DNA from: Escherichia coli
GTDB taxonomy: Bacteria; Pseudomonadota; Gammaproteobacteria; Enterobacterales; Enterobacteriaceae
Length of the DNA stretch: 64,000 nt
Strand: one strand, 5' to 3'
Assembly: GCF_003334315.1 (NCBI RefSeq)
Contig: NZ_QOWR01000018.1
Under the pieces are notes generated by a model. That model saw only the letters and a list, made by a program, of their open reading frames with translations, searched no databases and was not told the origin of the DNA. This document shows, piece after piece, positions 30,605-31,112 of the stretch. Both the position numbers and the translations under genes were made by a program. Numbering within the stretch: position 1 is the first letter of the stretch; every line of letters begins with the position of its first letter.

Positions 30605-30696
30605 ATACAGCGAACTCCATTGGTTTAGTTGGATATTTACTGTGCTGGACAAAACGGTTTGCGGGGAAATCTTAGTTAAGTAGAATGACTGCGGGT

Positions 30697-30861
30697 ACTT
30701 GAGGCTATCTGCCTCGGGCACGAACACCAACGGCAGGTAGAGAAAAGCCCCAGTTAACATTACGCGTCCTGCAAGACGCTTAACATTAATCTGAGGCCAA
30801 TTTCATGCTAGACACATGTAGGTTAGCCTCTTACGTGCCGAAAGGCAAGGAGAAGCAGGCT
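30697..30861 (+). promoter_or_regulatory. hok mRNA 5' leader (sok antisense target region)
   Basis: Contains ACTTGAGGCTATCTGCCTC, resembling the conserved hok mRNA 5' end. Confidence 0.4.
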
Positions 30862-31017
30862 ATGAAGCAGCAAAAGGCGATGTTAATCGCCCTGATCGTC
30901 ATCTGTTTAACCGTCATAGTGACGGCACTGGTAACGAGGAAAGACCTCTGCGAGGTACGAATCCGAACCGGCCAGACGGAGGTCGCTGTCTTCACAGCTT
31001 ACGAACCTGAGGAGTAA
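30862..31017 (+). CDS. hokD: Hok/Gef-family type I toxin (51 aa)
   Basis: MKQQKAMLIALIVICLTVIVTALVTRKDLCEVRIRTGQTEVAVFTAYEPEE; AGGAG SD; in-frame upstream extension from 30805. Confidence 0.85.
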   Translation: MKQQKAMLIALIVICLTVIVTALVTRKDLCEVRIRTGQTEVAVFTAYEPEE

Positions 31018-31086
31018 GAGACCCGGCGAGGGAGAAATCCCTCGCCACCTCTGATGTGGCAGGCATCCTCAACGCACCCGCACTTA

Positions 31087-31112
31087 ACCCGCTTCGGCGG
31101 GTTTTTGTTTTT
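31087..31112 (+). terminator. Rho-independent terminator after hok
   Basis: CCCGC-TTCG-GCGGG stem-loop followed by TTTTTGTTTTT. Confidence 0.7.

What the first reader, a model, noticed from the sequence alone, without database searches (positions are those of the whole stretch)
30690..31112. Complete hok/sok-type type I toxin-antitoxin locus carried by the prophage
The Hok toxin ORF matches HokD-type sequences, is preceded by a leader containing the conserved ACTTGAGGCTATCTGCCTC element and an in-frame upstream mok-like extension, and is followed by a perfect 9-bp hairpin (GGCGAGGGA-GAAA-TCCCTCGCC, possibly the 3' fold-back element) and a canonical terminator. An intact hok could stabilise the prophage or act in phage exclusion.
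Basis: partly seen in the sequence, partly recalled or inferred. Interest (0 to 1): 0.4.

Follow-up and report, generated by a model that had tools for sequence, protein, structure and literature searches.

The report
Prophage hokD-type hok/mok/sok toxin–antitoxin locus
This is an ordinary, already well-known hok/sok RNA-controlled toxin–antitoxin cassette (the full-length form of E. coli hokD) in a lambdoid prophage, and its only unusual feature is one private base change at a position where the same change abolishes toxin production in the plasmid R1 model system.

Summary
Window 30658-31112 (+) holds a full-length hok/mok/sok type I toxin-antitoxin locus in the nin region of a lambdoid prophage at the Qin site (rspB | int ... 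tail).

- The Hok ORF (30862-31017) is identical in DNA and protein to K-12 HokD.
- Every canonical element can be mapped: hok promoter, tac, ucb, mok SD and an in-frame mok, dcb, antisense Sok with its promoter, hok SD, 3' stem-loop, fbi and terminator.
- The locus scores 99.9 bits against Rfam RF01794 (gathering score 59) and 3.5e-23 against Pfam HOK_GEF.
- It is about 92% identical to hokW-sokW of phage Sp5, which has been characterised experimentally.
- At least 80% of the locus is present in 3831 of 5426 complete E. coli genomes, where it is annotated hokD.

1. The 9-bp hairpin (31025-31046) is not the fold-back element. It matches the protective 3' stem-loop of the processed mRNA. The fbi is at 31067-31079.
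2. "Intact" needs a qualifier. The only difference from the nearest genomes is G->A at 30697, in the tac element. None of the four sequence collections searched contains it. It is equivalent to R1 hok G4A, a published loss-of-toxicity mutation, and it costs the activating tac/ucb stem 5.2 kcal/mol, the same as G4A costs R1.

Known system, low interest.

The parts
30658..30686 (+). hok promoter: candidate -35 TTTGCG (30658-30663), 17-nt spacer, -10 TAGAAT (30681-30686)
   Evidence: Read directly from the sequence. The -10-N6-G(+1) geometry matches R1 (TATGAT-N6-G). The block is conserved in Sp5 and mEp460. The -35 is weak, so the strict consensus scan did not report this promoter. The transcription start is inferred by homology, not mapped.
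30693..30704 (+). tac (translational activator) element at the 5' end of hok mRNA, with +1 inferred at G30693. It contains the private A at 30697.
   Evidence: It aligns to the start of the Rfam model and to R1 +1-11. It pairs with the fbi in the full-length minimum-free-energy fold and with the ucb in the open fold. Position 30697 is G in the nearest genomes and in 120/120 viral contigs.
30711..30719 (+). Partner of tac in the co-transcriptional metastable hairpin (GCTTGAGGC / GCCTCGGGC)
   Evidence: The hairpin is predicted in folds of the leader alone and of the truncated RNA. The concept comes from PMC9841398.
30745..30753 (+). ucb / anti-SD box (AAGCCCCAG). It pairs with the mok SD in the closed form and with tac in the open form.
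   Evidence: In 78 of 79 aligned homologues all seven tac/ucb pairs form, and the window is the single exception.
30741..30813 (-). Sok antisense RNA, about 71-73 nt. A 9-nt single-stranded 5' tail overlaps mok codons 1-3, followed by a long hairpin and a U-rich 3' end.
   Evidence: Fold energy -30.3 kcal/mol, z = -5.5, with 0 of 200 shuffles folding as well. The 5' end is placed by promoter geometry. It overlaps the mok start by 9 nt, as the annotated sokC overlaps mokC in K-12. The ends are not mapped experimentally.
30820..30848 (-). Sok promoter: -35 TTGCCT (30848->30843), 17-nt spacer, -10 TAACCT (30825->30820)
   Evidence: The sequence is identical to Sp5 across this stretch. The Sp5 sokW -10 at this site was mutated to make the 'pro-less' construct that unmasked HokW toxicity (PMC8621323, primers YO-421/422).
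30793..30797 (+). mok Shine-Dalgarno (GAGGC)
   Evidence: Paired with the ucb in the full-length fold and with the dcb in the open fold. Invariant or nearly invariant in 80 homologues.
30805..31017 (+). mok ORF (70 codons), in frame with hok
   Evidence: K-12 mokC/hokC share the same stop and have lengths of 210 and 153 nt, so they are in frame too. R1 mok and K-12 mokB are out of frame.
30826..30830 (+). dcb (GCCTC). It pairs with the mok SD in the open, processed mRNA.
   Evidence: Constrained fold and the Rfam consensus structure. The five outer pairs form in at least 79 of 80 sequences.
30849..30852 (+). hok Shine-Dalgarno (GGAG), sequestered in a long-range helix with the 3' part of the hok coding region
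   Evidence: The helix joins window 30854-30870 to 30983-31000 (alignment columns 167-183 and 297-314). It has 15 pairs and 99.1% of cells are paired across 80 homologues.
30862..31017 (+). hok toxin gene (HokD, 51 aa)
   Evidence: DNA and protein are identical to K-12 hokD b1562. Pfam PF01848 at 3.5e-23. PHROG 251. RefSeq annotates the same sequence as hokD.
31025..31046 (+). 9-bp stem-loop, the predicted 3'-terminal protective hairpin of the processed (truncated) hok mRNA. It is not the fbi.
   Evidence: R1 has the same kind of hairpin, GGCGGGC-GCAG-GCCCGCC, in the same place just before the processed 3' end (PMC9841398). Three pairs show compensatory changes in 80 homologues.
31067..31079 (+). 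fbi (fold-back inhibitory) element, CCTCAACGCACCC
   Evidence: It pairs with 30693-30704 in the full-length minimum-free-energy fold. Duplex energy is -21.5 kcal/mol with G at 30697 and -14.8 with the window's A. Across 80 homologues 99.4% of cells are paired, and almost all variation keeps pairing through G-U. K-12 hokB has an fbi in the same place, with compensating changes on both sides.
31086..31112 (+). Intrinsic terminator of hok mRNA (stem 31086-31103, then a T run)

Best explanation
The region is the full-length form of the E. coli hokD locus. It is a hok/mok/sok type I toxin-antitoxin cassette of the prophage hokW-sokW lineage. It lies in the nin region (between the replication genes and Q) of a lambdoid prophage integrated at the Qin site, and it is transcribed in the same direction as the early-right operon.

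Mechanism, by homology with R1 hok/sok and Sp5 hokW-sokW:
1. A weak promoter makes a stable mRNA of about 420 nt. Its 5' tac pairs with the 3' fbi (31067-31079), while the ucb masks the mok SD. The full-length RNA is therefore neither translated nor bound by Sok.
2. Slow 3' trimming back to the 31025-31046 hairpin removes the fbi. Tac then pairs with the ucb, and the mok SD moves into the mok SD/dcb stem.
3. Either Sok (about 72 nt, antisense, made from TTGCCT-17-TAACCT) binds the mok start region and the duplex is degraded, or, if the unstable Sok is gone, mok is translated and hok is translated with it. Hok then inserts into the inner membrane.

Shown here: all the elements, their complementarities and their conservation.
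Inferred: transcript ends, processing, translational coupling and toxicity.

One qualifier. This copy has a private G->A at 30697. That replaces the central G-C pair of the tac/ucb and tac/fbi stems with an A-C mismatch. By analogy with R1 G4A, it most likely reduces Hok translation (my estimate is about 0.55), so the cassette may be attenuated.
For: Family and homology:
- Rfam RF01794 scores 99.9 bits against a gathering score of 59.
- Pfam HOK_GEF matches at 3.5e-23 and PHROG 251 at 2.8e-33.
- hok is identical to K-12 hokD. K-12 shares homology only from the hok SD onward, because relBE replaces the leader there.
- The locus is 92% identical to Sp5 hokW-sokW, and the Sok promoter is identical. 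Sp5 hokW-sokW was shown to be a type I TA (PMC8621323).
- At least 80% of the locus is found in 3831 of 5426 E. coli genomes, annotated hokD, and in 107 phage records.
- Synteny shows int-xis-exo-dicB...O-hokD-rem-ydfU-Q-lysis-terminase-tail next to rspB.

Structure:
- The full-length minimum-free-energy fold contains both tac/fbi and ucb/mok SD. The same procedure on R1 reproduces the published pairings.
- Across 80 homologues, 95.6-96.6% of cells are paired, against 32-42% when partners are slid by 1-3 columns. The 3' hairpin shows compensatory changes.
- The Sok fold has z = -5.5.

The substitution at 30697:
- It is the only difference from the nearest genomes over 491 nt.
- No exact match to the 61-nt window around it was found among 1482 matching records, drawn from the 5426 complete E. 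coli genomes searched.
- G is present in 120 of 120 viral contigs.
- The 21-mer carrying the A has 0 hits in viral, genome and metagenome collections.
- The open form loses 5.2 kcal/mol, exactly as R1 G4A does.
- R1 G4A abolishes toxicity and strongly lowers Hok protein (PMC9841398).
Against: - No expression data exist for this locus. The transcription starts, the 3' processing and the existence of Sok rest on homology.
- ViennaRNA does not make the open (tac/ucb) form the minimum-free-energy fold of the truncated RNA for either allele, so the thermodynamic argument is relative only.
- The A also weakens the inhibitory tac/fbi stem, by 6.7 kcal/mol. In principle that could offset the loss.
- The R1 result was obtained in a different sequence context.
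- The A could be a sequencing error.
- Native chromosomal hokA, hokB and hokC loci did not mediate post-segregational killing (cited in 10.1101/2025.08.07.668861), so even the G allele may have little killing activity from its own promoter.
- NCBIfam Hok models match but stay below their curated cut-offs.
Confidence: 0.72

Rival explanations
1. The cassette is a fully functional hok/sok module. The A at 30697 is either neutral in this context or a sequencing error, so the cassette behaves like the common G allele and like hokW-sokW.
For: All other elements are intact and identical to the widespread allele. Six of the seven tac/ucb pairs and eleven of the twelve tac/fbi pairs remain. The substitution weakens the inhibitory and the activating structures by similar amounts (6.7 and 5.2 kcal/mol).
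Against: In R1, all three substitutions at the equivalent G4 abolished toxicity, and G4A lowered Hok protein although both mRNA forms were present (PMC9841398). The position is G in every homologue examined, which points to strong constraint.
Confidence: 0.25
2. The cassette is de-repressed or hyperactive. On this view the A mainly loosens the tac/fbi fold-back, so the full-length mRNA opens early and is translated, or bound by Sok, without 3' processing.
For: The tac/fbi duplex falls from -21.5 to -14.8 kcal/mol. With the A it is no better than 122 of 500 shuffled 3' UTRs.
Against: R1 G4A weakens the R1 fold-back by a comparable amount (-175.9 to -170.5 kcal/mol), yet the measured phenotype is loss of toxicity. 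The ucb/mok SD pairing that masks translation is untouched. A lysogen with a hyperactive toxin would be counter-selected.
Confidence: 0.04
3. The cassette is a decayed remnant with no antitoxin, like K-12 hokD, which lacks sok, mok and the leader.
For: The toxin gene is identical to K-12 hokD. The prophage carries another private inactivating change, the ydfU E181* nonsense mutation.
Against: The whole leader, the mok start and the Sok gene with its promoter are present and conserved. The K-12 alignment breaks just upstream of the hok SD, whereas the window's does not. Rfam matches the full model, positions 1-157.
Confidence: 0.02

Closest known systems
hokD (relF) of E. coli K-12, cryptic prophage Qin
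   Same: The hok coding sequence and protein are identical. The 3' UTR is the same apart from one base in the hairpin, including the fbi and the terminator. The chromosomal site is the same (Qin, next to rem-ydfU-Q).
   Different: K-12 has relB-relE directly upstream, and homology starts only at the hok SD. There is no hok promoter, tac, ucb, mok start or Sok gene. The window carries the complete ancestral-type locus.
hokW-sokW of Stx2 prophage Sp5 (E. coli O157:H7 Sakai), PMC8621323
   Same: About 92% DNA identity over the locus. It shares the same tac, ucb, hok SD, fbi and in-frame mok, and its Sok promoter is identical. It is also prophage-borne. It was shown to be a type I TA in which Sok loss and HokW production follow RecA-dependent induction and double phage release.
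   Different: There are six differences in the Sok 5' tail and target patch. Hok differs at a few C-terminal residues. The terminator differs, and so does the position in the prophage. Sp5 has G at the tac position where the window has A.
hok/sok (parB) of plasmid R1, the mechanistic archetype
   Same: The element order and switch logic are the same: tac/fbi, ucb/mok SD, tac/ucb, mok SD/dcb, Sok promoter inside the mok 5' region, 3' stem-loop. The same folding procedure recovers the same pairings in both. Between the two loci the tac/fbi stem changes on both sides (C-G in R1, U-A here).
   Different: The Hok proteins are diverged (Sp5 HokW, a close relative of this Hok, is 44% identical to R1 Hok). 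R1 mok is out of frame with hok, whereas here it is in frame. The Sok hairpin here is longer, with a 16-nt insertion relative to the Rfam consensus. R1 is a plasmid stabiliser acting by post-segregational killing.
hokC/mokC/sokC (gef) of E. coli K-12
   Same: Same subfamily. The tac GGGTGCTTGAGGCT is identical. mok is in frame. The annotated SokC 5' end overlaps the mokC start by 9 nt, as predicted for Sok here.
   Different: It is chromosomal and not in a prophage. In K-12 an IS186 sits 19 nt after the stop codon and removes the fbi.

Membership tests
[quoted passage not shown] | A small (about 50 aa) hydrophobic Hok/Gef-family toxin ORF | tested here: met
   Pfam PF01848 at 3.5e-23 over model positions 1-42 of 42. 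PHROG 251 at 2.8e-33. Identical to HokD. NCBIfam Hok models match at E = 6e-13 but score below their curated cut-offs.
[quoted passage not shown] | An hok mRNA leader with the conserved sequence and structure | tested here: met
   Rfam RF01794 scores 99.9 bits against a gathering score of 59, covering model positions 1-157 of 157. The family is named 'sok' but models the sense (hok leader) strand. Its alignment flags the pair involving 30697 as non-canonical.
[quoted passage not shown] | An overlapping mok reading frame with its own SD, starting upstream of hok | tested here: met
   ATG at 30805 with SD GAGGC at 30793-30797, giving a 70-codon ORF that ends at the hok stop. It is in frame, as in mokC. 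Translational coupling itself cannot be tested with these tools.
[quoted passage not shown] | A cis-encoded antisense Sok RNA with its own promoter, covering the mok translation-initiation region | tested here: met
   The promoter TTGCCT-17-TAACCT is identical to the validated Sp5 sokW promoter. The predicted RNA has a 9-nt 5' tail and a hairpin, z = -5.5. Transcription was not observed here.
[quoted passage not shown] | Long-range 5'-3' pairing (tac/fbi) that closes the full-length mRNA | tested here: met
   Window 30693-30704 pairs with 31067-31079 in the minimum-free-energy fold. Across 80 homologues 99.4% of cells are paired. hokB has a compensated fbi in the same place. In this copy one of the twelve pairs is broken, and taken alone the duplex is no better than 122 of 500 shuffles. 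With G at 30697 only 8 of 500 shuffles match it.
[quoted passage not shown] | [quoted passage not shown] | tested here: met
   Hairpin at 31025-31046, with three pairs changed on both sides among homologues. Terminator at 31086-31103.
Toxin-competent (active) hok/sok module | An intact tac/ucb stem that frees the mok SD in the processed mRNA | tested here: not met
   The central pair is an A30697-C30748 mismatch. It is the only unpaired cell at that pair among 79 sequences. The open form loses 5.2 kcal/mol, the same as R1 G4A, and R1 G4A is a loss-of-toxicity mutation. This is an in silico result plus analogy only.
Toxin-competent (active) hok/sok module | Toxicity when Sok is removed, and rescue by Sok | not testable with these tools
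   Shown for the Sp5 homologue (PMC8621323), and for HokD on over-expression (10.1101/2025.08.07.668861). Not shown for this allele.
Prophage-borne hok (hokW-like) cassette | Located inside a prophage | tested here: met
   Synteny with the annotated 13P460A and CP53 regions: rspB | int, xis, exo, dicB ... O, hokD, rem, ydfU, Q, lysis, terminase, portal, capsid, tail. The same cassette occupies the same slot in phage mEp460.

The most novel reading that the evidence does not exclude
The private G->A at 30697 is a natural suppressor that silences Hok translation by breaking the tac stem. It would be the in-nature counterpart of the laboratory R1 G4A mutation. Together with the private ydfU E181* nonsense mutation 1.7 kb downstream, it would mark ongoing inactivation (domestication) of this prophage in the source lineage.
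Probability: 0.45. Interest if true: 0.3.

Novelty: already known. Interest (0 to 1): 0.2.

Why it matters
It matters little for new biology. hok/sok is a textbook type I toxin-antitoxin system. This allele is in most E. coli genomes and many lambdoid phages, and a 92%-identical copy has already been characterised experimentally.

The case is useful in two minor ways. First, it shows the complete form of the locus that K-12 retains only as the truncated hokD. Second, it offers a naturally occurring single-base variant at a nucleotide that deep mutational scanning of R1 hok marked as essential. An A-versus-G comparison would be a cheap test of whether the tac-stem rule carries over to the prophage hokD/hokW subfamily.

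Tried and rejected
- Hairpin as fbi: rejected. The 5' end pairs with 31067-31079, and the hairpin matches the R1 processed-end stem-loop.
- Strict sigma-70 consensus scan: it found neither the hok nor the Sok promoter. Both are weak by consensus (7 of 12 for Sok, the same as R1), so they were placed by homology instead.
- Unconstrained folding of the truncated mRNA: it did not give the open tac/ucb form for either allele. Only constrained-fold energy differences were used, calibrated on R1.
- Shuffle test of the tac/fbi duplex: not significant for the window's A allele (122 of 500) and modest for the G allele (8 of 500). Support for the fbi rests mainly on positional conservation and pairing-preserving variation.
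- Covariation in tac itself: it could not be assessed, because the viral homologues were retrieved with a pattern that fixes the tac sequence.
- NCBIfam: the Hok models match below their curated cut-offs.
- Exact-pattern scans for the A allele in viral, species-representative genome and metagenome collections: nothing found. The source strain was not identified.
- The K-12 hokE region I fetched missed the gene, and I did not pursue it.
- The idea that 30697 is the only private change in the prophage: rejected. 32372 is private too.

Full report
**What is there**

Window 30862-31017 (+) encodes a 51-aa peptide whose DNA and protein are identical to K-12 HokD. It matches Pfam HOK_GEF at 3.5e-23 over the whole model and PHROG 251 'MokW-like host killing' at 2.8e-33.

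The 175 nt upstream (30693-30867) match Rfam RF01794 at 99.9 bits, against a gathering score of 59, over the full model. That family is called 'sok' but models the sense strand, which is the hok mRNA leader.

- the motif at 30697-30715;
- an in-frame ORF starting at 30805;
- a perfect 9-bp hairpin at 31025-31046;
- a terminator at 31086-31103 followed by a T run.

**Context**

The surrounding DNA is almost identical to E. coli 13P460A and CP53. There the region is a lambdoid prophage next to rspB, the Qin site. Its gene order is int, xis, exo, ydfD, dicB, repressor/cro, ydaT, O, hokD, rem, ydfU, Q, lysis genes, cspI, terminase, portal, capsid and tail.

The cassette lies in the nin-region slot and points the same way as the early-right operon. 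Phage mEp460 carries it in the same slot.

In K-12 the homology to this locus begins only at the hok SD, and relB-relE occupies the place of the leader. The window therefore holds the complete form of a locus that K-12 retains only as a truncated hokD.

**How common it is**

- At least 80% of the 491-nt query is present in 3831 of 5426 complete E. coli genomes. The median is two copies per genome and the maximum nine, and the annotation is hokD.
- It is also present in 107 phage records, including Stx phages.
- A preprint survey already reports that hok is enriched in prophages (10.1101/2025.08.07.668861).
- The Sp5 copy, hokW-sokW, is about 92% identical. It has been shown to be a type I TA: sokW disappears and HokW appears on RecA-dependent induction, which roughly doubles phage release (PMC8621323).

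**Anatomy**

I placed the elements by alignment to R1, Sp5 and K-12 hokC and hokB, and by folding.

| Element | Window coordinates |
|---|---|
| hok promoter | TTTGCG-17-TAGAAT, 30658-30686; +1 inferred at G30693 (same -10-N6-G geometry as R1) |
| tac | 30693-30704 |
| metastable partner of tac | 30711-30719 |
| ucb / anti-SD | 30745-30753 |
| mok SD | 30793-30797 |
| mok ATG | 30805 |
| dcb | 30826-30830 |
| Sok (minus strand) | -35 at 30848->30843, -10 at 30825->30820, start about 30813, 3' end about 30742 |
| hok SD | 30849-30852 |
| hok | 30862-31017 |
| processed-end hairpin | 31025-31046 |
| fbi | 31067-31079 |
| terminator | 31086-31112 |

The predicted Sok RNA has a 9-nt free 5' tail, a long hairpin and a U-rich end. 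It folds at -30.3 kcal/mol, z = -5.5. Its 5' end overlaps the mok start by 9 nt, as annotated sokC does with mokC. The Sok promoter is identical to that of Sp5, whose -10 was mutated to abolish sokW.

mok is in frame with hok, as in mokC. In R1 and in K-12 mokB it is out of frame.

**Structure tests**

- The minimum-free-energy fold of the 420-nt transcript contains the 5'-3' tac/fbi helix and the ucb/mok SD pairing.
- The same procedure on R1 recovers the published pairings, +1-7 with +390-396 and mok SD with ucb.
- Forcing tac/ucb in the truncated RNA gives the Rfam 'open' architecture, including the mok SD/dcb stem.
- On an alignment of 80 distinct homologues, 95.6% of cells pair in the open structure and 96.6% in the closed one. 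With partners slid by 1-3 columns the figure is 32-42%.
- The 3' hairpin has three pairs with changes on both sides.
- Nearly all variation in the fbi preserves pairing through G-U.
- K-12 hokB has an fbi in the same position, compensated on both sides.

So the 9-bp hairpin is the protective end of the processed mRNA (PMC9841398), not the fold-back element.

**The one anomaly**

Over the 491 nt, the window differs from the nearest genomes at a single base: 30697 is A where they have G.

How rare the A is:
- A 61-nt query centred on it has no exact match among 1482 matching records, drawn from the 5426 complete E. coli genomes searched.
- All 120 viral contigs retrieved with an N at that position have G.
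- The A-specific 21-mer has no hit in the viral, species-representative genome or metagenome collections.

What the position does:
- It corresponds to R1 hok mRNA G4. The numbering was checked against the paper's G105-G108 mok SD and against A70 lying opposite T6.
- It pairs with C30748 in the tac/ucb stem and with C31075 in the tac/fbi stem.
- In R1, every substitution of G4 abolished toxicity. G4A left both mRNA forms present but strongly reduced Hok protein (PMC9841398).

Predicted energetic effect (kcal/mol):

| Structure | With G | With A |
|---|---|---|
| Open truncated form, this locus | -136.7 | -131.5 |
| Open truncated form, R1 wild type vs G4A | -147.2 | -142.0 |
| Full-length fold, this locus | -172.7 | -166.0 |
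| tac/fbi duplex, this locus | -21.5 | -14.8 |

The open form loses 5.2 kcal/mol in both this locus and R1. There is no compensating change in the ucb or the fbi.

The inference is that this copy is architecturally complete but probably attenuated for Hok translation. That rests on analogy and on relative energies. Unconstrained folding does not favour the open form for either allele. A sequencing error cannot be excluded.

**Is the substitution special?**

Most other differences from 13P460A within the prophage are alleles shared with other genomes. One other difference is private: 32372 G->T (0 exact matches among 2564 records). It creates a stop codon at codon 181 of ydfU.

Both private changes found in this 18-kb stretch are therefore of the inactivating kind. 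That fits prophage decay, but two events do not demonstrate selection.

**Function**

The best-supported model is the R1 switch logic, used as in Sp5. Sok holds Hok off in the lysogen. When Sok is lost, for example on induction, mok and hok are translated from the processed mRNA and Hok damages the inner membrane.

Read-through from the early-right operon across the cassette, which runs convergent to the Sok promoter, could explain Sok loss on induction. That suggestion is mine and is untested.

However, the native chromosomal hokA, hokB and hokC loci did not give post-segregational killing.

**Verdict**

- The system is already known.
- Interest is low, at 0.2.

Noticed in passing
window 32372 (ydfU, 31832-32881 +): A second private SNP: G->T turns codon 181 (GAA) of the DUF968 gene ydfU into TAA and splits it into two ORFs. 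No exact match to the surrounding 61-mer was found among 2564 matching E. coli records.
   Followed up: partly
window 30798-30819, compared with loci L007-L126: A hypervariable patch sits in an otherwise highly conserved locus. Mean column entropy is 0.87 bits against a median of 0.17, with 19 haplotypes among 80 homologues. It coincides with the Sok 5' recognition tail, its target, and the first mok codons. This suggests diversification of Sok/hok specificity among prophage copies that share a cell (E. coli genomes carry up to 9 copies).
   Followed up: partly
window 30425-30604 (+): A 59-aa hydrophobic ORF (MKNALQFLFVAFWLF...) with a good SD lies just upstream of the hok promoter. It is not annotated in the near-identical RefSeq genomes and has no PHROG or NCBIfam match.
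   Followed up: partly
window 30956-30959 and 31000-31003: There are two UACG motifs inside hok. The second is the Tyr47 codon (TAC followed by G). A preprint states that hokC, hokD and hokE mRNAs undergo TadA A-to-I editing that recodes this Tyr to Cys, which is needed for the disulfide. The motif is intact here.
   Followed up: no
window 31126-31155 (+): The only strict sigma-70-like site in the region, TTGAAG-18-TAGAAT, lies directly after the hok terminator and about 80 nt before rem (31234-31485). It may be a rem promoter.
   Followed up: no
window 25238-25289 (-), 38539-38955 (+), 63488-63686 (+): Other Rfam matches above gathering score in the window: DicF sRNA, a cspA-type thermoregulatory 5' UTR in front of the prophage cspI gene, and IS009 RNA.
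   Followed up: no
window about 37936-37941: The closest genome, 13P460A, has an IS3 inserted here in a DUF2514 lysis-region gene. The window lacks that insertion, so its prophage is less disrupted at this point.
   Followed up: no
window 30737: G here gives a U-G wobble in the tac-proximal hairpin, where 78 of 79 viral homologues have U-A. The chromosomal E. coli allele shares this G, so unlike 30697 it is not private and it still pairs.
   Followed up: partly
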